Shown piece by piece: positions 2,185-18,860 of a DNA stretch of 18,860 nt. Within the stretch, counting starts at the first letter, position 1, and every line of letters begins with the position of its first letter. Location of the stretch: positions 1 through 18,860 of the forward strand of contig JAQGDQ010001979.1 of assembly GCA_030141605.1 (NCBI GenBank), given 5' to 3'. Origin of the DNA: Tubiluchus corallicola (lineage: Eukaryota; Animalia; Priapulida). Position numbers and translations under genes: made by a program. The notes under the pieces were generated by a model. It searched no databases, was not told the origin of the DNA, and saw only the letters and a list, made by a program, of their open reading frames with translations.

Positions 2185-2246
2185 TTTAAAAAATAAATAA
2201 ACTTATAAAGTTCTATAGAGCATATTAACGTGTACACACGACTTAC

Positions 2247-2900
2247 CGTACGTATTTATCTAGCGGAAGCTTCTCCATTCTTAACCCTTCTTTCTTTGCT
2301 TTGGCCATGGTCAGTGGCAGCTGCTTGGACTTATCTACAAATCCACCAACTATATACACCAGATCATCGTCAAAAGTTTCCATGTAATTAGAAGCATTCG
2401 GACTCAAGTAAACCAGTTTATTTTTCGGATAAAGGTCCAGATAACTCTCCCCGCTGACCGTTATCATTACTTTAGTGTCGAGTCCACTGATCATCGGTTT
2501 GAGTTTTTCGTACACCGGGTCGTCGGACCGCACGTTGCACATGTGTATGTGGAACGGGTGCGGTGCGGTTTTGTTGTGTCCGTGCACGATCTTCATCTGC
2601 CACGCCGTGTTTGTTATTTCCGGCTTTTGCATGTATTCCGCAAAATCCATGTCGAAAACCAGATGCGGCCCGTACAGCATGGCGTGAGCGAGCCTCCAGT
2701 TGTCGAACTGTGTCATGGTGCTCTCACGAACGTACAGCGTGATGGTGTTGCAGCTCAGTCCGTACTGGAGGTGACCGTCGGCATCGAACGGTCCGGTGAT
2801 CATACCTTCTCTTTGGGCCAGCTGTGATTGATGGTAAGCTTGACGTGCGGCTTTTTTCCGAGCCGCACTTTCCTTCTTCCTCTCAGTTTTGAAATAATAC
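2247..2900 (-). CDS. TRMT10C: TRMT10C/MRPP1 homologue, internal coding exon containing most of the Trm10-type SPOUT methyltransferase domain
   Basis: Acceptor ttttatttttttcAG|G at 2901/2900. AC+G restores the frame (T-YYFKTERKKESAARKK...) into the 186-aa ORF with Trm10 motifs LVFDMDF, HPFHIHMCN, LVYLSPNA, VYIVGGFVDK and AKKEGLRMEKLPLDKY. Donor CG|GTAAGT at 2247/2246. The C-terminal exon was not found and probably lies left of position 1. Confidence 0.93.
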
Positions 2901-2918
2901 CTGAAAAAAATAAAATCT

Positions 2919-3419
2919 ATCTGTATTAACTGTATTATCTGTATTAACTGTATTATCTGTATTAACTGTATTAACTGTATTATCTGTATTAACTGTATTA
3001 ACTGTATTATCTGTATTAACTGTATTATCTGTATTAACTGTATTATCTGTATTAACTGTATTATCTGTATTAACTGTATTATCTGTATTAACTGTATTAA
3101 CTGTATTATCTGTATTATCTGTATTAACTGTATTATCTCTGTATTACTGTATTACTGTATTACTGTATTACTGTATTACTGTATTAACTGTATTTCTGTA
3201 TTAACTGTATTATCTGTATTAACTGTATTAACTGTATTATCTGTATTATCTGTATTAACTGTATTATCAACACAACTGTATACAAACATATCTGTATTAA
3301 CTGTATTAACTGTATTAACTGTATTACTGTAAACAACAATATTATCTGTATTAACTGTATTATCTGTATTAACTGTATTAACTGTATTATCTGTATTATC
3401 TGTATTAACTGTATTATCT
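2919..3419. repeat. 9-bp minisatellite (ctgtattaa/ctgtattat) with 8-bp ctgtatta variants
   Basis: Roughly 50 tandem units with two short interruptions (about 3268-3290 and 3331-3342), starting about 20 nt from the TRMT10C acceptor. Confidence 0.97.
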
Positions 3420-3423
3420 AACT

Positions 3424-3883
3424 CAGGGGTGTGCATATTGCGGCCTGCCAAGAGATTTGTCAACCTAATGAAAGTGCGGCCCGGGCGATTAATTGAGTGT
3501 ATCCAGCTGAAGTCCGTGCCACGATCCCAAAGATAGTGCGGGTAGTTTTTTCTACTAGATCGGATGCCATTAACCCTTACAAGACGGTTGTAGCTTAATG
3601 TCACTGTACTACACAGACTGTGTGATACACATTACTAATATGCATTGTAATGAAATTACCACTATCTGTCCTGAAAGTAGAAATATATGGTTTGTAATAT
3701 AAATTTTAATAACTTCTAAAATAGTTTCTTGAGTGTAGTAGTAATGATGTACGCAGGTCGGATGCAAAAAAATCGTTATTAGGCCTTTCTGTACTTGGCT
3801 CCTTGATCAAACTGCCTGTGGCCCGCAGGAATTGCGGGAAAGTTTAATGTGGCCTGGCTAATCAGATAATTTGCACACCCCTG
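3424..3883. mobile_element. hAT MITE family A, copy 1 (Buster/Charlie-like)
   Basis: TIR CAGGGGTGTGCA...TGCACACCCCTG; perfect 8-bp TSD atctaact; GGCCC/GCGG subterminal motifs; homologous to three other copies in the window. Confidence 0.93.
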
Positions 3884-4602
3884 ATCTAACTCATCTAATT
3901 GTATTATTACACAGCCAAATATTTGTGCAGCGTAAATATCCTAGAATGATGATGAAGACTGACAATTGTCAATAATTAGAACCTTCCAGCTCGAGGCCCA
4001 GTGTCGTCACAAATCCTTGAAGTTGAAGTCCAAATCAAGTCTTAGGTCAAGTCACTGCCGTCCAAGCTCAAACCAAATAAAGTTTGAAGTTTTATTATTA
4101 TCACATTATTATAATGACGTATAATACATGGTAACATCAAAAAATTATTACGTCATACTGTAATAAATTATTATGTTTCATACACTATCGTTATCATAAA
4201 ATAATAATTGTACTGCAGTGGGGCTAGAGAAGCAAAGGCTTGTATAAGCCCACTGTCATGTGAACCCGATAAAAGAATGGATGAGTGAACAAAGAAAGAA
4301 CTGGGAGAAAGGTTAGATCACACAGGAAGGGTAGAAGGATGTGTTAGTGGAAATGGAAGGAAGAAAGATAATAGATTGTGCTATGTTGACATCAGCTCTA
4401 AAGATTTATCAATGATGCCTTGTTCGATTAAATTACAATTAAACAGGAATTTGAGTTTAAATCTTGGGTTAATTTGACTTGAACTGTTCCTTGACGTAGC
4501 CAATGTAATTTCTTGGAACTCAGTTTGCACAGGGCGATTTGAGAATCGACCCAGTCGCCGGACACTATAAAAACTTGAGATTCGACCTGTATTTAGGCAT
4601 CG

Positions 4603-5729
4603 GCCAAGTGGTTGAAGACTTGACTTGGACTTTGCTGCATTGGGTTGAACACGTCTTAGACTTTGCCACATTGGGTTCAAGACTTGACGACTTAGACTTT
4701 GCCACATTGGGTTCAAGACTTCACGACTTAGACTTTGCCACATTGGGTTCAAGACTTCACGTCTTAGACTTTGCCACCAAGTGGTTCAAGACTTAACTTA
4801 GAATTTGCCACCAAGTGGTTCAAGACTTAACTTAGACTTTGCCACCAAGTGGTTCAAGACTTAACTTAGACTTTGCCACCAAGTGGTTCAAGACTTGACT
4901 TAGAATTTGCCACCAAGTGGTTCAAGACTTAACTTAGACTTTGCCACCAAGTGGTTCAAGACTTAACTTAGACTTTGCCACCAAGTGGTTCAAGACTTAA
5001 CTTAGACTTTGCCACCAAGTGGTTCAAGACTTGACTTAGACTTTGCCACCAAGTGGTTCAAGACTTAACTTAGAATTTGCCACCAATTGGTTCAAGACTT
5101 GACTTAGAATTTGCCACCAATTGGTTCAAGACTTAAATTAGAATTTGCCACCAATTGGTTCAAGACTTAACATAGACTTTGCCACCAAGTGGTTCAAGAC
5201 TTGACTTAGAATTTGCCACCAAGTGGTTCAAGACTTAACTTAGACTTTGCCACCAAGTGGTTCAAGACTTAACTTAGAATTTGCCACCAAGTGGTTCAAG
5301 ACTTGACTTAGACTTTGCCACCAAGTGGTTCAAGACTTAACTTAGACTTTGCCACCAAGTGGTTCAAGACTTGACTTAGAATTTGCCACCAAGTGGTTCA
5401 AGACTTGACTTAGACTTTGCCACCAAGTGGTTCAAGACTTGACTTAGACTTTGCCACCAAGTGGTTCAAGACTTAACTTAGAATTTGCCACCAAGTGGTT
5501 CAAGACTTGACTTAGACTTTGCCACCAAGTGGTTCAAGACTTAACTTAGAATTTGCCACCAAGTGGTTCAAGACTTAACTTAGAATTTGCCACCAAGTGG
5601 TTCAAGACTTGACTTAGACTTTGCCACCAAGTGGTTCAAGACTTGACTTAGACTTTGCCACCAAGTGGTTCAAGACTTGACTTAGACTTTGCCGCATTGG
5701 GTTCAAGACTTGACGCAGAATTTGCCATA
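4603..5729. repeat. 34-bp minisatellite array (ccaccaagtggttcaagacttRacttagaMtttg)
   Basis: Period 34 (for example 4774 and 4808); 27 core units from 4774 to 5691, flanked by diverged cattggg-type units, some of 36 bp. Confidence 0.97.
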
Positions 5730-5859
5730 CCAATATGGCAAAGTCTGAGTTTTGGCTTTAACCTCATAAACGCCTACTTTTCATATTTAAAAAAAACCCT
5801 AGACAAGTTGGCAATAGCAAACTGTGATTCCGAATCTAAACAATGAATGTCAGCCCATT

Positions 5860-6038
5860 GTTGTTATTGGCATGCTTCTGTCTCGGAAGACAATGGAATG
5901 TGCGCCAAGAGAGTCCGATCCTTGAACGTCTCCAGGGCGCACGCCTGGGCAACGTGTATGGAGATCCTGAGTTGCCCAGACAACAGGAACCCCCTCTCTT
6001 CCCTCCCTGGTGTAGTCCAAACGAAAGCGGAGCGATAC
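5860..6038 (-). mobile_element. 5'-truncated RTE-related non-autonomous retroelement/SINE
   Basis: The minus strand ends ...ggcgcacattccattgtcttccgagacagaagcatgcc followed by aataacaac, resembling RTE 3' ends with a terminal stem-loop and (CAA)n tail. Flanked by gtcagcccatt/gttagcccatt (TSD, 1 mismatch). Family call is from memory. Confidence 0.6.
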
Positions 6039-6270
6039 GTTAGCCCATTAATGTCATGTTATTTAGCAATTCCCGCTTGCTTATTAAATTTCTCAACTAA
6101 AAAGTTCGCCAAATTCACACACAAATTCTTCTGGGTTGCTGCACAACATGAAACTCAATCAGTCAGCATTTTGCCTCAGCTGTTAAATAGCTAAGGTTGA
6201 ATGACAGAGTGAAAGTGTTATTGCGGTACTTTATACTGTGATGCACTCGTAATCATGGTGTAGTGGCATC

Positions 6271-6389
6271 TGTGATAATCCGTTTGGCCTAAAATGCTGT
6301 AAATGTGTTGATGTCAGAATGGATTATCACAGTGGTGTCAGAAGTGGGATATGAACCCATGGCTGGACAACCAGACTGCGATTATCACA
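6271..6389 (+). mobile_element. 119-bp TG...CA element: 61-bp mini-LTR-like unit + Leu PBS extended into an antisense tRNA 3' half + regenerated terminus
   Basis: 5-bp TSD gcatc (6266-6270 and 6390-6394); tgtgataatcc...ggattatcaca (6271-6331); PBS TGGTGTCAGAAGTGGGAT (6333-6350); gattatcaca again at 6380-6389. Confidence 0.8.
6333..6381 (-). pseudogene. 3' half (positions 38-76, including CCA) of tRNA-Leu(CAG)
   Basis: The minus strand reads T-CGCAG-T-CTGG-TTGT-CCAG-CC-ATGGG-TTCATAT-CCCAC-TTCTGAC-A-CCA: 3' anticodon-stem strand, paired long variable arm, T arm, acceptor strand, discriminator A and CCA. Confidence 0.85.
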
Positions 6390-7075
6390 GCATCAAATGT
6401 TACGACAGAACTCAACAAAACGCCTTGAACTGGTGAATAATTTCTACCGTTTGTTTATTTGAAAGTTAAAACACACTTGTTGACTTTTCAGTCCAGAACA
6501 CAATACTGTGATGGCGAATTCATTACTTTCCACAATACTGTGAAAGTCATTTTTGAAGTTGTTGTTTAGTCACTTTGTTATGATTGAGTTTAGACACAGA
6601 GAAGTACGAATAGGAACCAAAAATCTATAATAAATATTTGCACTGCAAACAACAGAAAAGTGTTTATTAAACTACAGAAAACATGAGTAGCAAAAACTAG
6701 AAAGCAAAAACAGTCAGTAAAACCTGTTTCACAGCCAGTATACAGGTATAGAACTTGACGTTTGTCTCCTTATAAGCCTCGCTCAGGTCAGGCAGTCAGT
6801 CAGTCAGTCTCTTCTACTCCGTGCCTAAGCTCTCTTTTCATAAAACAGCCACTACGCCTCACTAAACCAGGAAATAAAAAATCTGTGTTTTTTTCTAGTT
6901 GTGCCAGCTACTGCAAATACTTAACTTTCTTCTTCTTCTTCAAAATCTCATTCCACCTGTTGTACGCACTGAGAAACACTTAACTAAGTGAACGTTCCAG
7001 TTGTGCAGCCCAGTGCCTGGCAGCTCAGTAAAATCAATAACTCTATGAGAAAATAATAAGAATGTAATTACTTAC

Positions 7076-7491
7076 GTTAAAAGTCTAGTTCTCGATGATT
7101 TTGTGTCTCTTGTCAACAGCTCAAGAAACTGCTCATTGGAGATCCTTGACGGCATCTTATGTCCGGACTGTTTCAACATGGAACATTCCAGAGCGATGAT
7201 TAGCAGACGTTTCTTCTGTTCCTCGGACAGGTGAGAGAAACACTCGTCGTCGACATCTACCTGTACGTCTGCATCATCATCGGCAGGTAGCTCATCCAAG
7301 TCGTTACCAACAACCGATGAAACTTTTCTTCTGTGTAGACTGAGCCAATTAACTGCTTTGCTGTGTTGTTGTTGTTTGTAAGCGATCTTAGAGTCACGTC
7401 GGACATGAGAACAGACCGCGGTGTAAATGTTCCTATGAATAACTGCTGCATAGCGGGATAAAGAATAAACACTTCGCATGGACTGCGCCAT
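7076..7491 (-). CDS. TRMT10C: TRMT10C/MRPP1 homologue, first identified coding exon (N-terminal, putative mitochondrial presequence)
   Basis: Acceptor ttttcttatAG places the exon start at 7517. ATG in accATGG context at 7491, open to donor AC|GTAAGT at 7076/7075 (phase 2). The N-terminus is Arg/Ser-rich and poor in acidic residues, followed by 'LECSMLKQSGHKMPSRISNEQFLELL...SSRTRLL', which resembles the MRPP1 N-terminal region. The frame is also open upstream of the ATG, so the start could lie in an earlier exon. Confidence 0.85.
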
Positions 7492-7573: not shown

Positions 7574-8247
7574 AATGACTAATTATTCATAAGCACTTGC
7601 AAGATTCATACAAACGAACTCATATTAAATTGAATGTAAAAAAACGATAAACTGATGGAAAATTATTTAAAATCTAAAATATTTTCTTAATACCTACAAG
7701 TGAAATTATTAATGATTAATTATGAGGGGTGAGCATCGAACGTTCGAATTTGATTCGAACGAGTTTTTTTAGTTCGAACTCGATTCGAATCCAAAACTAT
7801 AGATTCGAATAATTCAGCACTTCAATCACACATGTTCTTTATCACTAAAACGATTGAAACATCATGCAATTAGCATAATTTAGCTGTGATTTCTGCGCAC
7901 AATTTTAAACAAATTACTAGTCGTTTTATTGCAGAACAAAATCTAGTGATATGCATGATCTTTGTAAGACTAATTTTTACTGGTGGTTCGAAAACTTGTT
8001 CGAAAATCTTTCAATCTCAATTCGAATTCGAAACACTGAAGTTCGGTTCGATTCGAATTCGAAAGTCACAAATTCGGTTCGATTCGAATTCACTTTCTGG
8101 TAGAGAATGCTCACCCCTATTAATTATTAATAAGCACTTGCAAGATTCATACAAACTAACTCATATTAAATTGAATGTAAAAAAAGAATAAACTGACACA
8201 AAATTATTTAAAATCTAAAATATTTCCCTAATACCTACAAGTGAAAT
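7574..8247. repeat. 137-bp tandem duplication whose second copy is interrupted by a MITE
   Basis: Unit 1 is 7574-7710; unit 2 starts at 7711 and resumes at about 8128-8247 (taagcacttgcaagattcatacaaac...taatacctacaagtgaaat in both). Confidence 0.9.
7724..8119. mobile_element. hAT MITE family B, copy 1 (TTCGAA-rich subterminals)
   Basis: TIR (g)AGGGGTGAGCA...TGCTCACCCCTA; perfect 8-bp TSD ttaattat. Confidence 0.92.
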
Positions 8248-8627
8248 ATCAGAGATGCATTCCATAGTGTTCCACAGTCTTTTATCATTATGCTTAACTC
8301 AATTTGATTAAACACTATTGCGTATTTTTGTTTCATTGTATTTAGTTTGATTTTATCATGTATATTTTGTTTCCTTCACTGATTTATTATTTATGTTTTA
8401 TTTTTTTCATTCGGTTTGAGTTTTTTCTAGTTTATTTTATGTTTTAATCGGGTTAGTTAAACGCTTTCCATATCTTGTTAATCATTATTTCATATTTTTC
8501 ATTTTATTTTAATGTTTCTTTGTTGCACAGCCTATTTAGTTATTTTGCTCTCAAGTTTAATTTCTTCCCCCATAAATTTATGTTAACAGCTGATTTTCTT
8601 AACTGACTTCATAATTATGTTACATCT

Positions 8628-8905
8628 ATAATAATAATAATAATAATAATAACAATCTTTATTTAATGTCGGGTTTTGGGTCAACAATTAACATTAGCTC
8701 AAAGAGCTATTATCACCGACTGTAAATAACAACCTACAACTACATAACAGAGACTATTATTACCCCACTTTTACCCTAAATACCACGTGTCAGGCAGGGC
8801 AACAGCAGGTACCATTTTTAAAGTCTGTGGTATGACCCGGCCGGTGGTTCGAACTCACGACCTCCCAGACGGAAAGCACACGCATTACCATTAGACTAAA
8901 CCTTT
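8628..8905 (-). mobile_element. tRNA-derived SINE with a Meta-domain-like body and (TTA)n tail
   Basis: Minus strand: A box TAGTCTAATGG (8898-8888), B box GAGTTCGAACC (8856-8846), body gggtcataccacagactttaaaaatggtacctgctgttgccctgcctgacacg, then AATAAA and (TTA)n. Confidence 0.8.
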
Positions 8906-9203
8906 TAATTAGCAGCACTAGAAATTTTTTTACAAGTTACACTAATCTCAGAAAGATAGCTGACTTGATGACCAATTGGTCTTTTTTTACCCTTTCTCCT
9001 GCACCCCCTTCAACTCTTTCCTTTATGCATAATTTATCCTTTTTAATCGAAAACTATAGCAATAATAGTCTATTTGTATCCTGGTGTAAATGAGGAGATA
9101 AATAAAATGTCTATGTCTATGTATTGAGCATAGATGCAAGTGCTGCATGTGTGAAACCAAGTGGAAAAATATTTGCTATTGTGATGGAAAAGATAGATTA
9201 GGC

Positions 9204-9609
9204 CAGGGGTGTGTAAACTGCAGCCCGCCGAAAGATCTTGTGTGGCCCGCGAAGAGGTTTGTCAACGTAATGAAAGTGCGGCCCACGCGATCCAGCTAAG
9301 TCCGCGCCAATATCACAAAGATAGTGCGGATAGTTTTTTCCTCAAGATCGGATGGCATTAACCCTTACAAGACCATTGTCACTTAGTGTCACTGTCGGAC
9401 ATGACGAAATATATGGTTTTTAATATATATTTTAATAACTTCTAAAATAGTTTCTTGAGTGTAGTAGTAATGATGTACGCAGGTCGTATGCAAAAAAATC
9501 GTTATTAGGCCTTTCTGTACCTGGCTCCTTGATCAAACTGCCTGTGGCCCGCAGGAGTTGCGGGAAAGTTTAATGTGGCCCGACTAGTCAGATAATTTGC
9601 ACACCCCTG
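9204..9609. mobile_element. hAT MITE family A, copy 2 (shorter, more diverged variant)
   Basis: CAGGGGTGTGTA...TGCACACCCCTG; TSD gattaggc/gtttaggc; lacks the internal segment seen at about 3608-3680 of copy 1. Confidence 0.9.
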
Positions 9610-10658
9610 GTTTAGGCTGTGAATTTCTTATTAAGGGTTTTTCGTATTATAAAAAACGGAAACGTTGGGAGAGTTGGCGAAGGTTGCCGAAAATTCCGCC
9701 ATGGAGAACATGACAGAGCTCGAAATGAATCTTTATTAAATTTTAAACAGAAATAGAAATTTATTATGAACGTGTCGTAGCGTACTGTGGGCATTGAAAG
9801 CCTTTAGCAATGACACGGACGCCATGTAAAATCCCAAAAGTTTGTATCAAGTCTCGGTACATGCACATATGCTTTTTAATAAAGATATTTTCGAAATTAA
9901 CTCGAGTGCTTGCTTTTCTATTTATTAACCCTGCTGTACGTACATTAAATAATTTACGTGCACAAGTTGATCACTTCCCATTTGATCATTTATTTAGTGG
10001 TAACAATCATTTATGCTAGTGCAAGGCAGGTAGTCTAGAATTAGTAAAAGAAACTTGGTAACAATTAGACAACCTAATTAACTCAGTAACTTAGGCAGAC
10101 TAAGTGTTGAAAAAAACACAACCAAACCCGAATTCTATAGACGTACAACACTAAATAAATTTGTAATTGCGCAAGTCCCAGCACACAAGATAACCTTATC
10201 ACCACGACGGCATTCGATTCTTAAACGATTCTAACTACAAGTCGGAAATATTATTTCTAAATCCATTTAAGCTCTAGAGCCAAAAATTTTCCATTTTTTA
10301 CAAAACTGCTTAACATCACGCGGTTTCAGCAACATGGGCAATCTTTCCATGGCAGAGTAGTTGTCAAGCAGGTTGTAACAGCAAAGGGCACACGAAGGCC
10401 TCTTCCAAAGGGCATTGCCGCACGCGCGTGCACGCACACACACACAGACCTGGACGCTGGTTGTAATAATAGCATTCATTCTTGGTAGGTTTGATCGGTA
10501 AAAACTTATTTGTCCAAATTCTTAGACTAAATATCGTACTGTGACAATAATGTGTGGCTTAATAATACGCACTAATAAAGCAAGCAGCTTCCGCATTAAT
10601 GTTAGTGCACTTCAATAGTGATCTAAATTTAACTGGACCACGACCATGGTGCCCTAAT

Positions 10659-11029
10659 TAGGACTGAGCATCAAGCGTTCGAGTTCGAACGTAATTCGAT
10701 TCAAATGAGTTTTTTAGTTAGAATTCGATTCGAGCCTGAAATTATAGATTTGAATAATTCAGCAGTTCAGCCACATTATATTCTTTATAATTAATAACGT
10801 TTGGAAAAGCATGCAATCAGCACAATTTACTGTAGTTTCTGCGCAAAATTTTTACTGCAGAACAAAATCAAGTAATATGCATAATCTTTGTAAGACCAGT
10901 GGTTCAAAAACTTCTTCGAAAATCTTTCAGACTCAATTCGAATTCGAAATACTGAAATTCGGTTCAATTCGAATGTCACAAATTCGATTCGACTCGAATT
11001 GGCTTTCTGGTAGAGAATGCTCACCCCTA
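10659..11029. mobile_element. hAT MITE family B, copy 2 (diverged)
   Basis: TAGGACTGAGCA...TGCTCACCCCTA; TSD gccctaat/gccctaaa; homologous to 7724-8119. Confidence 0.88.
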
Positions 11030-12189
11030 GCCCTAAAACCAATTTAATTTGGTGATTTCTTTTGTGACATGCTCCATGTAATTTTTTTTACTTTTAAAAT
11101 GACCGAGACATTTTTATTATACTGTACTGAACACCCCTTTCACGCAAAATTTAAGTTTCAGTTAAAGCCTAGTTATGCACCTGGCCTGTATAATAGCGGT
11201 CGTCTCTGCTCTTTCACTGGTCCAGTTAGATAAATCTACGACGGTGTAAATTCTATTTCATCATTATATTTGTAGCTACTTCATATAATTTGCTAATAAA
11301 GGTATCATTTTTCTTACACATCATTCTGTTGTTTTGTTGATGGATGTCAGAAGAGTTATACTCTGCTTGGCCTCCGCATCAGCTGGTACAGAACCAACCT
11401 GGGTAGGTTTAACCACACGTGGGCGACGTACCACCAGCACTTCAATACTATTAACCATTCAAGCATCTTCTTTTGGTATGATTTTATAAATGGATGCTTA
11501 TGAATTACAATGGTAATAACAAAGATCATTATTAGTTCTCTTGACAAGAACAGTAGGATCACTGATTATTGTTCAAATACTTCTCTTCCTGCAGTCACAT
11601 AAATGCCAAGTACCAAAGACTAGCAATGTTGAAAATTCTACTCTAAAATGGCAGTGCTGATGTACCAGTCACGTATTTCTTTTACCAGATGATTAGAATT
11701 CAAATGTGGAAGAAGCTGGATAGTTTTTCCTCCCAATAGATCAACTGAGAAGCCTCATTTAACTACTATAACACACCTGAGTGTAGGTATATTTACTTAC
11801 AGTAAGAATATTTTGCAAACATTATTATTATTAATTTTTATTGTGTCATAAATTGATTTAATTTCAACAATTCTTTTACGTTTTTCAAAGCATGCAAGTT
11901 TCTCACTCAACTCAATTACTAATTTATAAAAAAAATCAAACGCAGTCATCAATAAACCAATAAATTTAAAACAATTATGAATAATTACCCATTTATTTTA
12001 CTATTTACACACAAATATCATGTTGACTATCATAATATCTACAAGATCTACTGATGATGATAACAATTAACTTTCTACGGTCTCACTGAAAACTATATAA
12101 ACTTTCCATCAAGGCATAATGAATGAAAATACATTTGACTCATTGCAATAAAAAAAATAACTTTAAAAGTCAACCACAGTTTCCAATTA

Positions 12190-12608
12190 CAGTCAACCCT
12201 CGTTAAACCGGGCTAATTGGGGGTGGGTCCGGTTTAGCCGATTGTCTGATTTTTCCGATATGCCTATATATGGTCTATATTATACAGGAATAATCACCTT
12301 AATATGGCCTATATACATGGCACTATATACTATACTGTATATTACTTTAAAATAGTTAACCTGTGAGGATAAAGAAATTAGCGAGTGCTTTCGATGTGGT
12401 AAGCAAACTGAATTTTGGCGGGAATCGTAGCAGCCTGGGCGGTACAGCGAGCCGCTTCGGCCCGTCAATGGCTCGTGTTGAGTTGGTAGGCCCTGTTGTG
12501 TTTAGCGCTCCGGCTCGGTCGGAAAGCGGTCAGTTTCCTTTACCACGGATGACGTCCGTCTTATCCGATATCCCGGCTAACGGGGTTCGGTTTAACGAGG
12601 GTTGACTG
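12190..12608. mobile_element. Tc1/mariner (pogo/Tigger-like) MITE
   Basis: Perfect 21-bp TIR CAGTCAACCCTCGTTAAACCG / CGGTTTAACGAGGGTTGACTG, flanked by TA on both sides. Confidence 0.92.
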
Positions 12609-13013
12609 TATTCACTAAGAACAACGAACCAAAATCTCCTATAACAACATCACCTCATTACTTTATCACACAACGCGTCATATCTGAAAAAGGCAGCAGC
12701 ATGATAATACAGTTCAATGTTGTTTTCATAGCAATTAACTGGTTTTAACAGACAGACAAATCTAGCAAACAGACAGCTAGTAATGAGAAGTCTGTATTTT
12801 CATAGTCGAATTCGTAAATTATGCTTTAATGACACAACTTGCAGACAGCAATATACCCATGAATCAGCCTAGAACAAACCTAACAATAGTGGAAGTTTTT
12901 AGATTTTAGTTTTACAAACTTAGATACTTTTACAAAACTTGATCTGCATGTAATGTAGTGCTGGCATTGATATTTCAGTAAAGATAAGAAGCACCCAAGA
13001 TCACAATTCCACG

Positions 13014-13108
13014 CAACAAACAATGGTATTTTCAACAAACAATGGTATTTCCAACAAACAATGGTATTTCCAACAAACAATGGTATTTTCAACAAACAAT
13101 GGCATTTT
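13014..13108. repeat. 19-bp tandem repeat x5 (caacaaacaatggtatttY)
   Basis: Five adjacent near-identical units. Confidence 0.95.
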
Positions 13109-13520
13109 CATTATCTATTTCATGACAATTGCAATAATTGTCAACAACCATTAACAAAAACCTTATTCAACAACACTTGTCGCTAATATGACAGTGCTGC
13201 CACCAATGTACAAAAAAATAAAGCGCTGCAGAGATACGCATTTTAACGATTGGACACAAGTAGCGAAGCATTTCGAAAATTATTTTACTGAAATAAGAAA
13301 TAAATAGTTGCTGAACGATCTATAAAAAAATCAACTTAGAATATTTTGGGTAACAGAAAAATAATTACTTTCGTTGGAAGATATAATATTCTGTCCAGAA
13401 AGAGGAGCAACAAATTTTCCAGCTTCACTCATAATAAAACCAGAGCAATGGCAATCTTGCTGTTAACTGTGATAATTGAAAAGCTGTTAAACACTGATGT
13501 CAATATGTGAACAGCTATAT

Positions 13521-14020
13521 CAGGGGTGTGCAAATTATCTGGTTAGCAGGGCCACATTAAACTTTCCCGCAATTCCTGCGGGCCACAGGCAGTTTGATCA
13601 AGGAGCCAAGTACAGAAAGGCCTAATAAGGATTTTTTTGCATCCGACCTGCGTACATCATTACTACTACACTCAAGAAACTATTTTAGAAGTTATTAAAA
13701 TTTATATTACAAACCATATATTTCTACTTTCAGGACAGATAGTGGTAATTTCATTACAATGCATATTAGTAATGTGTATCACACAGTCTGTGTAGTACAG
13801 TGACATTAATCTACAACCGTCTTGTAAGGGTTAATGGCATCCGATCTAGTAGAAAAAACTACCCGCACTATCTTTGGGATCGTGGCACGGACTTCAGCTG
13901 GATACACTTAATTAATCGCCCGGGCCGCACTTTCATTAGGTTGACAAATCTCTTCGCGGGCTGCACAAATTCTCTCGGTGGGCCGCAAGTGGCCCACGGG
14001 CCGCAATTTGCATACCCCTG
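13521..14020. mobile_element. hAT MITE family A, copy 3 (inverted relative to copies 1-2)
   Basis: CAGGGGTGTGCA...TGCATACCCCTG; TSD agctatat/aactacat (2 mismatches); near reverse complement of 3424-3883. Confidence 0.92.
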
Positions 14021-14210
14021 AACTACATTCACAACAGTATACACCAGAATCAGAATTTGACATTCCCACAGAACAGCCAACCTAAAGCATGCAGCCAGTA
14101 ACAAGTCCATTATAGGCATACCAGCAACACATCACATAACTAAATAGTTAGTAATCAGTCAACTAACGAAGTCAAATGATACAATTAAAATATTTAACAC
14201 TACCTATTAC

Positions 14211-14604
14211 TAGGGGTGAGCATTCTCTACCAGAAAGCGGATTCGAATCGAACCGAATTTGTGACTTTCGAATTCGAATCGAACCGAACTTCAGTGTTTC
14301 GAATTCGAATTGAGATTGCAAGATTTTCGAACAAGTTTTTGAACCACCAGTAAAAATTAATCTTACAAAGATCGTGCATCTCACTAGATTTTGTTCTGCA
14401 ATAAAACGAATACTAATTTCTTTAAAATTGTGCGCAGAAATCACAGCTAAATTATGCTAATTGCATGATGTTTCGATCGTTTTAGTGATCAGGAACATGT
14501 GATTGAAGTGCTGAATTATTCGAATCTATAGTTTTGGATTCGAATCGAGTTCGAACTAAAAAAACTCGTTCGAATCGAATTCGAGCGTTTCATGCTCACC
14601 CCTA
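14211..14604. mobile_element. hAT MITE family B, copy 3 (inverted relative to copies 1-2)
   Basis: TAGGGGTGAGCAT...ATGCTCACCCCTA; perfect TSD cctattac; near reverse complement of 7724-8119. Confidence 0.94.
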
Positions 14605-15025
14605 CCTATTACACTCGCCTCTGTGTGAAAGTTCTGATAAATTTAATTGCCTACTCTAAAGACCACAGTTACAACAGAGTGAAGGTATAGAGTTAGTAAT
14701 CACAATAATAATATTTATGCTACACTAACACTACATCATTATCTAACGATCAAAATAGTAACAGATAGCTTATTCACACTAAAATGGTTCACTCCAGCTG
14801 ATTTTCACTTAAACTGGTGCTGAAGTTTGGCAGTGCATTTCACGAGAATGCTGTGGATCTAATAAGAAATGAGAAGACGAGTCAAGGGTAGACATCTATG
14901 GATATAGCTTGATAAACAAGCCAAGGAGGAACTATCCAGGTATTAATGGTCCAATAACTATCTGGCTAAACAGAGTTTGCTAATAAAACATGTCAGCATA
15001 AACAAACTAAACTGACCGTCTAAGT

Positions 15026-15543
15026 CAGGGGTGTGCAAATTATCTGACTAGCCGGTCCACATTAAACTTTCCCGCAATTCCTGCAGGCCACAGGCAGTTT
15101 GATCAAGAAGCCAAGTACAGAAAGACCTAATAACGATTTTTTTGCATCCGACCTGCGTACATCATTACTACTACACTCAAGAAGCTATTTTAGAAGTTAT
15201 TAAAATTTATATTACAAACCATATATTTCTACTTTCAGGACAGATAGTGGTTATTTCAATACAATGCATATTAGTAATGTGTATCACACAGTCTGTGTAG
15301 AACAGTGACATTAAACTACAACTGTCTTGTAAGGGTTAATGGTATCCGATCTAGTAGAAAAAACTACCCGCACTATCGTTGGTATCGTGGCACGGACTTC
15401 AGCTGGATACACTCAATTAATCGCCCAGGCCGCACTTTCATTAGCTTGACAAATCTCTTCGCGGGCCGCACTTTCATTAGGTTGACAAATCTCTTCGCGG
15501 GCTGCACATATTCTCTCGGCGGGCCGTAATTTGCACACCCCTG
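15026..15543. mobile_element. hAT MITE family A, copy 4 (inverted; internal 36-bp duplication)
   Basis: CAGGGGTGTGCAAATTA...TAATTTGCACACCCCTG; perfect TSD gtctaagt. Confidence 0.94.
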
Positions 15544-15824
15544 GTCTAAGTTAACCAATCAGGCAAACCACCTTAGTGTTAATAAGCTACAAGTAATAAC
15601 AATAAGCAACTCTTTCTATAATAATAATAGTAATAAAATTACTACAGCTAGTTACAAGGGATTCTGATATCACACATAAACATAACGATGATGCAACTAC
15701 AATTAAAATGTAAGTAACATCTAATTAACTTCTAGTAACGGAGACTTTGAAATCTGTCTATTGTGTGACAAGAGTGAAGGGAGACTTGCTTTCGCGACAA
15801 AATCTCAGGCAAACAATTTATTAA

Positions 15825-16272
15825 CCCTTTCAGTCCCAAATTATTTTTTAATAAAAAAAATTTTTTTGGCTTGGTACTTTATGTCCATCTTGTTTACACA
15901 TAATTATTTTTTTCTACTTGTGCCCGCGTGCTAAATATAGCCTGTATCCCACAGAATACATTGGGATTCAATGGAAGCATAAAATGTGCTTCATTTTGCA
16001 ACTGCTGATAATATTTTAAAGTATTTAAGACATTTAGTATGCATGCTATGCTGATCTGTACAAAGTCGTCTCTAAAGTACTGTACCTTGCACAGGTTTTT
16101 ATGCTATGCAGATTTTCTAGTTTGCCATTTTATCACCATTTTTAGTCTATTGTTATTGACATAAATCAAAATAACTATTAACAGATCAAATAACTGTCAA
16201 TTTTAAAAATTTATTAATTTTAAAGGCAGAAAATATTCTCGTATGCCACGGGATACAACGGGTATGAAAGGG
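15825..16272. mobile_element. piggyBac-like MITE
   Basis: TTAA|CCCTTTCAGTCCC ... GGGTATGAAAGGG|TTAA (11/13 TIR match, TTAA target on both sides). Confidence 0.8.
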
Positions 16273-16956
16273 TTAAACTATGTGCATTCGACGAGGCAGT
16301 TCACAGATTTCAGAATTTCAAGCAAATTGTGCATAAATGACATTACTGAGATAACAACGAATTACACCAGAGTGCAACATTGATAATTGTTTATTAATTT
16401 AGAAATCTACATCCTGATTAATTAAATTATTCCTGTCTTGTCTTTCAGATTAGAACTATTAGCGAAATATCGTCGTAATACATTTGCTCAAAACAATTCT
16501 GGATACTTTTTTTTGCTATAATTCCAAACCAATTTATTGTCTCTATGATAAAGATGCAACATCATAAAGATGCTACTGCATCTAGACTTTGCCACACGAT
16601 TCCCAACATCACTGGTAAGAGAAAGTTAAAAAGATCGCCGCTATTGCTACATTCGATCAGTCTGTTGTGTTGTTTTTTTCTTGACAAACATTTTCTTATG
16701 GTACAAATTATTCAGTTTGGGAGAAACAAAGGCTGGAACGGAAGAACGGTGTCATCAAGTTGATCAGTTGTGGTTCTAAATCTAGTCGGAGTAATTTTCT
16801 CAATCTTGACTCCTTTTAACGAGCATTTTTCCATTATTCAGTGGAAGCTCAAGTGGTGTAGTGTGCACTTTTCTTACAGTTGCATTTTCTTTTTGTAACT
16901 GTACTTCTCAACTTCGTGATCTGTTTGACCATATTTTTAAAGGGTACGATGTGAAA

Positions 16957-17026
16957 ATGTACGGCAACGTAGAGCCTGGTTAGTACTTGGATGGGTGACC
17001 GCCTAGAAATACCAGGTGCTGTAGGC
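16957..17026 (+). pseudogene. 5S rRNA-derived copy 1 with internal deletion
   Basis: atgtacggc is joined directly to aacgtagagcctggttagtacttggatgggtgaccgcc...gtgctgtaggc; 48 nt shorter than copies 2 and 3. Confidence 0.88.
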
Positions 17027-17333: not shown

Positions 17334-18232
17334 CTGCGGGATGCTCACACTGTATCTCGACACTAGGTGGAGGAGCTGCACAAGCAGCCAACGGCTAGAG
17401 GGCGGAGGTTCTACGTACATTTTAAGGTACATTGCAACAATTTTGTGCTTACTTTTATTACTAAAATCGTCATCATAAATAGTACTAAAAAGTCTTTGAT
17501 TATCATTTTTCAAACTTCTACAAGCAACATACAAACTAACTCCCCAAACAGCAAAACATCCGTTAGTCAACATTCTTTGTATATTTGTTAAAAAGTATTA
17601 AATCTATGTTTCAGGTAACACAATTGATTACACGATACAGCACTAAGACAGAAATGTTGCAAAAACATTTAATAACTCATGAGCAATAAAGTAAGGATAG
17701 CAGATTATGAAAAACCAGATTCACTTGCGAAGTACGGAAGATATACCCAACCACAGGACAACAGTGCCGAAGAGTGTACCGGCTCCAAAAGCCGCCCATC
17801 GAACAAGTTTCGGGTGCTTGGGTTTCGTCAGGCACGCCCAGTTGATGAGGTCTACAGAGCCCTCTTCTGTCACGTTTGCATTCTAAAAGTAAAATTTCAA
17901 ATTAATGAAAGCATTGCATTAGCTGTCAGGCCTTGAGAACTCGCTTCATTGATTCTCACGAGATGTTTTTAAGATCACAGATGCATTACAGGTTGTCAAA
18001 ATTAACGGCTTAATGCAAAACTGTAGCTTGCTTGTGGTAGTTTCCAGTGCTTAAAGTTTGCGAGGTCTGTTATTAGGGTTTCGGAACCAGAACCTAAAGT
18101 TATAGGCCCCGTAGCAAAAGCAAAAACAATCCCTCGTCGGGTTGAGCGGTCAGTTTTTTTACAAGTTCATTAGTCTAAGCCTATCTATAGTGTAAACCCA
18201 ACTTTCAATCAGCAAAACTGAACTGTAGACGA

Positions 18233-18860
18233 TAACAATGGGCTCAAGTATTTTAACAATGGGCTCAAGTATTTTAACAATGGGCTCAAGTATTTTAACA
18301 ATGGGCTCAAGTATTTTAACAATGGGCTCAAGTATCTTAACAATGGGCTCAAGTATCTTAACAATGGGCTCAAATATTTTAACAATGGGCTCAAGTATTT
18401 TAAACAATGGGCTCAAGTATTTTAACAATAGGCTCAAGTATTTTAACAATGGGCTTAAGTATTTTAACAATGGCTCAAGTATTTTAACAATGGGCTCAAG
18501 TATTTTAACAATGGGCTCAAGTATTTTAACAATAGGCTCAAGTATTTTAACAATGGGCTTAAGTATTTTAACAATGGCTCAAGTATTTTAACAATGGGCT
18601 CAAGTATTTTAACAATGGGCTCAAGTATTTTAACAATAGGCTCAAGTATTTTAACAATGGGCTTAAGTATTTTAACAATGGCTCAAGTATTTTAACAATG
18701 GGCTCAAGTATTTTAACAATGGGCTCAAGTATTTTAACAATAGGCTCAAGTATTTTAACAATGGGCTTAAGTATTTTAACAATGGCTCAAGTATTTTAAC
18801 AATGGGCTCAAGTATCTTAACAATGGGCTCAAGTATTTTAACAATAGGCTCAAGTATTTT
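18233..18860. repeat. 21-bp minisatellite (aacaatgggctcaagtatttt), runs off the window
   Basis: About 30 units; a 104-bp higher-order period appears from about 18405. Confidence 0.98.

What the first reader, a model, noticed from the sequence alone, without database searches (positions are those of the whole stretch)
6266..6394. Minimal 119-bp integrase-type element: mini-LTR + primer tRNA copy + rebuilt terminus, with 5-bp TSD
Seen: gcatc | TGTGATAATCC-39 nt-GGATTATCACA | g | TGGTGTCAGAAGTGGGAT...GACTGC | GATTATCACA | gcatc. Established: TG...CA ends, short terminal inverted repeats, 4-6 bp TSDs and a TGG-starting 18-nt PBS 1-3 nt after the LTR are hallmarks of LTR retrotransposons. Unusual: the LTR-like unit is only 61 bp, there is no PPT or second LTR, the PBS continues into 49 nt of tRNA, and only a 10-nt end motif closes the element. 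Inference: plus-strand strong-stop DNA ran on into the primer tRNA, then switched template via the shared GA onto TGTGATAATC, rebuilding an integrase-competent end. This could be a one-off event or a family of tiny tRNA-capturing non-autonomous elements, unlike two-LTR TRIMs. Related tRNA-associated mini-LTR repeats may already be in repeat libraries, so novelty is unverified.
Basis: partly seen in the sequence, partly recalled or inferred. Interest (0 to 1): 0.85.

Follow-up and report, generated by a model that had tools for sequence, protein, structure and literature searches.

The report
Retrotransposon misfire with copied primer tRNA
This 119-base insertion is a single copy made of a shortened end-repeat of a common jumping gene plus a backwards copy of most of a leucine tRNA, and it is likely a one-off copying accident in which reverse transcriptase overran its tRNA primer and re-made the element's end, not a new family of tiny mobile elements.

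Summary
The anatomy is exactly as described. (1) The 61-bp 'mini-LTR' is not a natural unit. Its first 52 bp are a high-copy repeat end whose other copies continue differently at 6322. Its last 14 bp end a longer LTR that precedes a normal 18-nt primer site. The two pieces overlap by AATGG (6318-6322), the mark of an internal deletion. (2) No family was seen: the tRNA extension and rebuilt end sit at single-copy depth, and empty sites with one GCATC exist. The proposed mechanism holds up. The copy reads T at tRNA position 58 and stops at 38, next to G37. An unrelated LTR-like junction (L097) has the same 49-nt copy, same letters and same stop, and HIV-1 makes an analogous minor product (PMC13191261). 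Best reading: an over-extended plus strand of a Leu-primed Ty3/Gypsy element jumped to the LTR end and was integrated. It is a dead-end fossil of a known error; the rebuilt, integrated end is the new twist (0 of 113 other junctions).

The parts
6266..6270 (+). Left target-site duplication GCATC
   Evidence: contigs that end here continue with letters matching window 6395-6408 at 12-13 of 14, i.e. empty sites with one GCATC
6271..6322 (+). 5' 52 bp of a high-copy LTR-type repeat (TG start)
   Evidence: summed contig depth 8,000-17,000 against 102-109 on the unique flanks in X1; unrelated loose ends before 6270/6271 (agreement 0.49-0.59 where several contigs); shared different continuation after 6322 in X1-X4 (agreement 0.88-0.90)
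6318..6322 (+). AATGG microhomology at the inferred internal deletion of the LTR
   Evidence: the 5' pieces match up to 6322; a longer LTR-end contig starts matching at 6318 (X1 record 1)
6318..6331 (+). 3' 14 bp of the longer LTR (CA end)
   Evidence: X1 record 1 (220 nt, depth 146) matches 6318-6350 exactly with 187 other letters before; record 3 (depth 249) matches 6321-6350
6332..6350 (+). 1-nt spacer G plus 18-nt primer-binding site for a leucine tRNA (includes the CCA complement)
   Evidence: same junction form in 120 public loci; TGGTGTCAGAAG is the Steamer/C-clade Gypsy primer site (PMC8905726, passage)
6351..6352 (+). tRNA positions 58 and 57, reading T and A in tRNA sense where a genomic tRNA gene reads A and G
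   Evidence: window, L097 and L064 read 58T 57A; L061 reads 58G 57G; the tRNA gene in L049 reads 58A 57G
6351..6381 (+). 31-nt over-extension: antisense copy of tRNA-Leu(CAG) T-arm, variable arm and 3' anticodon stem, ending at position 38
   Evidence: 28 of 31 identical to L097 with the same end point; an X3 contig runs on into G37 and the CAG anticodon; 6367-6381 at depth 109 in X1
6380..6389 (+). Rebuilt right end GATTATCACA (GA shared with the tRNA copy; identical to 6322-6331)
   Evidence: 16 matches in a 20-column alignment of 6370-6389 with 6313-6331; single-copy depth
6390..6394 (+). Right target-site duplication GCATC
6228..6530 (.). Host site: an older, unrelated interspersed repeat interrupted by the insertion (limits approximate)
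   Evidence: raised depth at 6228-6270 and 6420-6530 (up to about 3,200 in X1), pieces with up to about 20% other letters
2901..7075 (-). 4.2-kb GT..AG intron of a TRMT10C/MRPP1-like gene; the element lies in it, antisense to the gene
   Evidence: TRMT10C chains, E about 1e-33

Best explanation
The insertion is likely a single dead-end product of a leucine-tRNA-primed Ty3/Gypsy retrotransposon, made when reverse transcriptase overran its primer. SHOWN: an LTR 5' piece and an LTR 3' piece overlapping by AATGG, spacer, 18-nt primer site, 31 further tRNA-derived bases ending at position 38, a second copy of the last 10 LTR bases, a 5-bp duplication, single-copy depth and empty sites. INFERRED, in order: (1) plus-strand strong-stop synthesis copied LTR, spacer and primer site; (2) it read through m1A58, leaving T at 58; (3) it stalled before G37, probably m1G37; (4) the primer site paired as in a normal second transfer, so the minus strand copied the left LTR, while the unpaired 31-nt flap annealed by its GA and imperfect upstream likeness to the far U5 end and copied 8 more bases; (5) both ends then carried integrase ends, the looped duplex was integrated, and repair or replication fixed the short plus-strand version; (6) the LTR interior was lost by a separate AATGG-mediated deletion, before or after insertion. 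With no PPT, second LTR or coding region it is not expected to move again.
For: Anatomy and chance estimates. Longer parent LTR with a normal primer site. In X1, contigs of depth 146 and 249 enter 6321-6350 but the only listed contig leaving it has depth 109 and runs unbroken to 6560, so the other copies leave at 6351, the end of the 18-nt site (my inference). Of 118 public junctions with enough sequence, 113 match the next 10 tRNA bases at 5 or fewer, 1 at 6, 1 at 8 and 3 at 10, so extension is the exception. L097, with no BLAST likeness to this LTR, has the same 58T/57A and the same stop at 38; L061 has 58G; the genomic tRNA gene L049 has 58A. Encoded CCA points to a mature tRNA template (established for eukaryotes, recalled). 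HIV-1 makes a minor plus-strand product that stops at the modified base 37 and cannot do a normal transfer (PMC13191261, section 10). m1G37 blocks AMV RT in yeast tRNA-Leu-UAA (PMC8062790, passages). Steamer has this primer site and a 5-bp duplication. Downstream ORFs of such junctions: 10 of 28 zinc knuckle, 1 of 28 RT plus RNase H.
Against: No whole genome was held; copy numbers rest on summed contig depth, which the tool says is no copy number, and X1, X2 and X4 are one sample that may be the window's source. The parent's coding region was never seen, so 'Gypsy' rests on primer site and duplication length. The organism's own tRNA-Leu(CAG) gene was not read and its modifications are untested. 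57A is unexplained (native base, CpG decay or second error); 6360, 6362 and 6368 also differ from L097. The exact microhomology at the switch is only 2 nt. Only one other locus (L097) shares the end point, and identical letters could also reflect common descent. X3 records 6 and 7 run past position 37, so 38 is not the only end among tRNA-like copies. 14 of 28 ORFs had no Pfam hit. No contig spans the deletion junction.
Confidence: 0.75

Rival explanations
1. Inherited leader plus later deletion: a lineage of Leu-primed elements carries the 49-nt tRNA copy as a fixed part of its 5' internal region; a full copy inserted normally and a later deletion removed everything up to the last 10 bases of the 3' LTR.
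For: Window and L097 share 58T/57A and the end point. The LTR itself shows a microhomology deletion, so deletions do happen here. It needs no unusual integrase substrate.
Against: The other LTR+primer-site junctions in X1 appear to leave at 6351 (inferred). Window and L097 LTR sides are unrelated. A later deletion would have to end by chance at the base where L097's copy also ends.
Confidence: 0.12
2. A propagating family of about 119-bp one-LTR, tRNA-capturing elements moved by an integrase.
For: Clean TG..CA ends, 10-bp inverted repeat and 5-bp duplication; the left end is high-copy; a B-box-like motif at 2 mismatches on the minus strand.
Against: 6367-6389 is at single-copy depth in X1 and not covered in X3; the high-copy part continues into a different, longer sequence; 0 of 113 public junctions have a rebuilt end within 150 nt; no properly placed A box (the only 1-mismatch hit lies downstream of the B box); no PPT.
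Confidence: 0.05
3. A LINE-made tailless tRNA retrocopy, or a decayed tRNA gene, that happens to sit between a solo LTR or MITE and a 10-bp terminal motif.
For: Other tRNA-Leu-like loci with CCA occur in these runs (X1 records 4 and 5, X3 records 6 and 7); a genomic tRNA gene can be followed by CCA (L049).
Against: The tRNA end sits 1 nt after the LTR end exactly as in longer contigs of the same family; one duplication brackets the whole 119 bp; the copy lacks the tRNA's 5' part rather than its 3' part.
Confidence: 0.03
4. The short form is partly an assembly artefact: the true allele has a full-length LTR before the tRNA copy and the window collapsed it.
For: No listed contig spans 6303-6317; X1 record 1 (longer LTR, depth 146) could feed record 2 (depth 109) directly.
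Against: The window-identical left flank is also missing from the listed contigs, which fits graph clean-up of short links next to a very deep repeat (my inference); the tool states that holes prove nothing. This rival changes the size, not the mechanism.
Confidence: 0.05

Closest known systems
Over-extended plus-strand strong-stop DNA of HIV-1, product P5 (PMC13191261; passages and section 10 read)
   Same: Read-through of m1A58 and stop at the modified base at 37 of the primer tRNA; such products cannot do the normal second transfer.
   Different: Seen in vitro and in cells for tRNA-Lys3 (ms2t6A37). Here the primer is tRNA-Leu(CAG), and the product appears rescued by a switch to the LTR end and fixed in a genome.
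C-clade Ty3/Gypsy elements (Steamer, SURL; PMC8905726 and PMC10663159, passages)
   Same: TG..CA LTR, TGGTGTCAGAAG Leu primer site, 5-bp duplication; LTRs of 153-219 bp against at least 201 bp inferred for the parent here.
   Different: No coding region seen; LTR starts TGTGATA, not TGTAACA; Steamer's CATN..NATG target bias is not matched by the flanks (sequence).
TRIMs, SMARTs and Helenus/Ajax (Kojima 2024, PMC10886601; part 1 of 6 and passages read; supplements not read)
   Same: Short, non-coding, LTR-derived, with a primer site; Helenus carries tRNA-like sequence; solo LTRs with 5-bp duplications occur.
   Different: TRIMs have two LTRs and a PPT and are multi-copy; Helenus has its tRNA-like part inside the LTR as a Pol III promoter. 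Here the tRNA copy continues the primer site and there is one deleted LTR plus a 10-bp end.
Dead-end plus-strand strong-stop DNA of yeast Ty1/Ty3 (PMC5371799, passages)
   Same: A first plus strand that extends into the tRNA and accumulates as a dead end.
   Different: Not described there as integrated or as rebuilding an end.
Retroviral 'deletion with insertion' transfer errors (Pulsinelli and Temin 1991) and the strong-stop model for SINE origin (Ohshima et al. 1993): both recalled; look-ups failed, nothing read
   Same: As recalled: primer-tRNA sequence copied beyond the primer site then a jump; tRNA joined to U5 sequence.
   Different: Details unverified. This copy lacks the tRNA 5' half and A box, so it is not a SINE head.

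Membership tests
LTR retrotransposon-derived insertion | TG...CA ends with terminal inverted repeat | tested here: met
LTR retrotransposon-derived insertion | 4-6 bp target-site duplication with an empty site | tested here: met
   allelic or paralogous status of the empty sites not settled
LTR retrotransposon-derived insertion | tRNA primer site 1-3 nt after the LTR, also in other family copies | tested here: met
   X1 records 1 and 3
Ty3/Gypsy C-clade (parent element) | Leu primer site and 5-bp duplication | tested here: met
Ty3/Gypsy C-clade (parent element) | RT/RNase H phylogeny and RT-RH-IN order | not testable with these tools
   no genome held; parent coding region not retrieved; PMC8905726 says only a tree separates these branches
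TRIM/SMART | Two LTRs | tested here: not met
   only 10 bp of a second end
TRIM/SMART | Polypurine tract | tested here: not met
   longest purine run 3 in 6351-6381
TRIM/SMART | Multi-copy family of the whole unit | tested here: not met
   6367-6389 at single-copy depth in X1; contigs only, one sample
Helenus (TRIMp3) | tRNA-like sequence with A and B boxes inside both LTRs | tested here: not met
   tRNA part lies outside the LTR; B-box-like only
tRNA gene or tRNA-SINE | Complete cloverleaf or A+B box head | tested here: not met
   ARAGORN 0 genes; no tRNA match among 9 weak Rfam hits in 6000-6700
Over-extended plus-strand strong-stop product | Copy of mature tRNA (CCA) contiguous with the primer site | tested here: met
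Over-extended plus-strand strong-stop product | Misread at 58 and stop beside a modified base 37 | tested here: inconclusive
   58T and end at 38 seen, repeated in L097; the host's tRNA gene and its modifications were not available

The most novel reading that the evidence does not exclude
Integrase accepts over-extended strong-stop DNA whose far end was rebuilt from only 8-10 LTR bases, so Gypsy elements routinely deposit LTR+primer-tRNA chimeras as complete insertions; these form a genomic record of germ-line tRNA modification (m1A58 misreads, stops at 37), and some have become self-standing, re-mobilised tRNA-LTR elements, a living route from retrotransposon primer to SINE-like repeat.
Probability: 0.1. 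Interest if true: 0.75.

Novelty: new variant of a known kind. Interest (0 to 1): 0.38.

Why it matters
It is a compact genomic trace of a biochemical event known mainly from retrovirus assays: read-through of m1A58 and arrest near position 37 of the primer tRNA. If right, it shows that such a dead-end strand can be rescued with an 8-10 base end and integrated, which bears on the minimal end a Gypsy integrase needs. Collected genome-wide, such copies would report which tRNA primed an element and how it was modified in the germ line. As one non-mobile copy in an intron it probably does nothing for the host, and earlier notes of this scan describe like accidents in other genomes, so the interest is moderate.

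Tried and rejected
Whole-genome search: none held. ARAGORN found 0 genes in the window. Rfam on 6000-6700 gave 9 weak hits, all far below gathering scores; the microRNA-like hits on 6271-6331 only reflect the inverted repeat. No second copy inside the window. IMG/VR: 0 matches for the extended primer pattern, 1 for the junction pattern, 8 for the LTR-start 17-mer, none extending beyond 17-22 nt, rejected as chance. The missing cover at 6303-6317 is not used as evidence. L049 was set aside as an intron-bearing tRNA gene (ARAGORN at a relaxed score labels it Ser(cga); I read it as Leu-CAA). L064 (6 of 10) and L066 (8 of 10) are ambiguous. Paper searches for a published genomic case: searches gave 0 papers; one search listed 19 of 22, none on this by title or abstract start; some searches gave the papers cited. 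Most subscription and older papers, Repbase and Dfam were not searchable, so absence from print is not established. Lauermann and Boeke 1997 was not held.

Full report
Observation. Fixed-place probabilities are about 8e-4 for the duplication, 3e-5 for the 8 untemplated end bases and 4e-7 for the 11-bp repeat, and no other span in the window joins a 10-bp inverted repeat with a 5-bp direct flank. The window is animal-like DNA; the element lies antisense in a 4.2-kb GT..AG intron (7075-2901) of a TRMT10C-like gene. No genome was held, so family questions were put to contigs of public runs: 6 were listed and 4 laid. X1, X2 and X4 are one sample that may be the window's source; X3 is a second study.

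The 61-bp LTR is a deletion product. In one search summed depth over 6276-6323 is 8,000-17,000 in X1 against 102-109 on the flanks. Loose ends before 6270/6271 disagree with each other, as expected at a true family terminus. At 6322 the listed copies in all four runs go on with one shared different sequence. In one search a 220-nt X1 contig matches 6318-6350 exactly and has 187 other letters before 6318, and a second variant matches 6321-6350. So the parent LTR is at least about 200 bp, ends at 6331 and is followed by the same G and 18-nt primer site. The window's unit is its first 52 and last 14 bases, overlapping by AATGG (6318-6322). No listed contig spans this junction; the tool warns that holes prove nothing, so the time of the deletion, and even a full-length allele, stay open.

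One copy, with empty sites. From 6367 to 6420 only one contig (depth 109, no differences) covers the stretch in X1, and none in X3. Contigs ending at 6270 continue with letters matching window 6395-6408 at 12-13 of 14 (2 contigs in X1, 2 in X2, 1 in X4), so sites with a single GCATC and no element exist. One of them carries the unique left flank with 13 differences and an 8-base gap at depth 102, which fits a second allele but may be a paralogue, because the target is itself a repeat. Depth entering 6321-6350 (146 + 249) exceeds depth leaving through the window's path (109, unbroken), from which I infer that the other copies leave at 6351, the end of a normal primer site.

The tRNA copy looks like a reverse transcript of the mature primer. 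Numbered from the CCA end, the window reads 59A 58T 57A 56C. The copy ends at position 38; an X3 contig of a related copy continues into G37 and a CAG anticodon, which names the tRNA as Leu(CAG), in line with the recalled layout. Only 3 of 120 continue with the T-arm motif. L049 is a genomic tRNA gene and reads 58A 57G. L061 is a 12-nt extension reading 58G. L097 has an LTR-like end unrelated to ours, the same spacer, 28 of 31 identical extension bases, the same 58T 57A and the same stop at 38 before non-tRNA sequence. Of 118 loci with enough sequence, 113 match the next ten tRNA bases at five or fewer. Of 28 long downstream ORFs, 10 have a zinc knuckle, 1 has RT and RNase H, 3 have other hits and 14 none, consistent with LTR-element junctions. 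None of 113 testable loci repeats its LTR end within 150 nt after the primer site, so the rebuilt end is rare.

Literature. A 2026 review (PMC13191261, passages and section 10) states that HIV-1 plus-strand strong stop is set by m1A58, that minor products end at 55, 54 and the modified base 37, and that the 37 product cannot serve for transfer. PMC8062790 (passages) shows misincorporation signatures at m1A and an AMV-RT block at m1G37 in yeast tRNA-Leu-UAA; that Leu(CAG) carries m1G37 and that m1A58 is misread mostly as T or G is recalled, not shown here. PMC8905726 and PMC10663159 (passages) give this primer site, 153-219-bp LTRs and a 5-bp duplication for Steamer-type C-clade Gypsy elements. 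PMC10886601 (part 1 of 6 and passages; supplements unread) defines TRIMs and Helenus, which this fails on two LTRs, PPT and place of the tRNA part. PMC5371799 (passages) describes dead-end plus strands in Ty1/Ty3. My searches for a published genomic case found none, but older and subscription papers, Repbase and Dfam were out of reach. Earlier notes of this scan (e1-7804496, e1-8610053, e1-9536341) report like over-runs in other genomes; they are unchecked AI notes, used only to lower my novelty estimate.

Mechanism. Most likely (0.75) the plus strand overran m1A58, stalled before G37 and paired at the primer site, while its 31-nt flap annealed to the far U5 end. The exact overlap is GA, and the alignment of 6370-6389 with 6313-6331 has 16 matches in 20 columns, 10 of them the repeated end. 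Eight more bases completed an integrase end, the looped duplex was integrated with a 5-bp duplication, and the short strand was fixed. All these steps are inferred; the parts, copy depth and empty sites are shown. Rivals: an inherited tRNA leader with later deletion (0.12), a mobile mini-family (0.05), an assembly collapse of the LTR (0.05), a chance tRNA retrocopy (0.03). Unexplained: the A at position 57, shared with L097 and L064.

Verdict. Observation confirmed; mechanism largely supported; 'mini-LTR' and 'family' not supported. It works like an over-extended strong-stop product of a Leu-primed Gypsy element and is not a TRIM, Helenus or SINE. New variant of a known kind; interest 0.38.

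Noticed in passing
window 6271-6291 against X1 record 1: In the longer LTR-end contig the inverted match to the window's LTR start extends to 20 of 21 bases (read by eye), long for an LTR. The left end is about 100-fold deeper than the flanks while the LTR+primer-site junction is only about 5-7-fold: a large solo-LTR excess, or an LTR-derived repeat moving by its ends.
   Followed up: no
X1 records 4, 5 and X3 records 6, 7, laid on 6328-6366: Further CCA-ending tRNA-Leu-like copies; three records (X1 record 4, X3 records 6 and 7) align from 6328/6329, i.e. over the LTR-end and spacer letters, and the X3 ones run past position 37 into the anticodon. They may be more over-extension products or tRNA genes and pseudogenes.
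   Followed up: partly
L097:250-330 (-), L061, L064, L066: LTR-like ends followed by primer sites extended into the tRNA in unrelated metagenome contigs; 58T/57A recurs in L097 and L064, 58G in L061.
   Followed up: partly
window 2243-2900 and 7076-7490 (-): Two-exon TRMT10C/MRPP1-like gene (mitochondrial tRNA m1R9 methyltransferase) with a 4.2-kb intron. The link to a tRNA-bearing insert is taken as coincidence.
   Followed up: yes
window 6100-6270: The contig with the empty site differs from the window by 13 letters and an 8-base gap; the same six listed substitutions occur in X3 from another study. It is either a very divergent allele or a paralogue.
   Followed up: partly
window 4604-5725, 2855-3400, 18147-18856, 1951-2206: Tandem arrays with units of 34, 9 and about 21 bases and a GA microsatellite.
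   Followed up: no
window 3424-3891, 9198-9626, 13508-14028, 15009-15559; 7725-8124, 10710-11030, 14206-14603: Two dispersed repeat families of about 450-600 bp and 300-400 bp in both orientations; the first has CAGGGGTG-type ends that suggest a non-autonomous DNA transposon (family label recalled).
   Followed up: no
L020:451-1641, L052:2-1471: ORFs downstream of Leu primer sites carry a SCAN domain and an N-terminal SAP domain.
   Followed up: no
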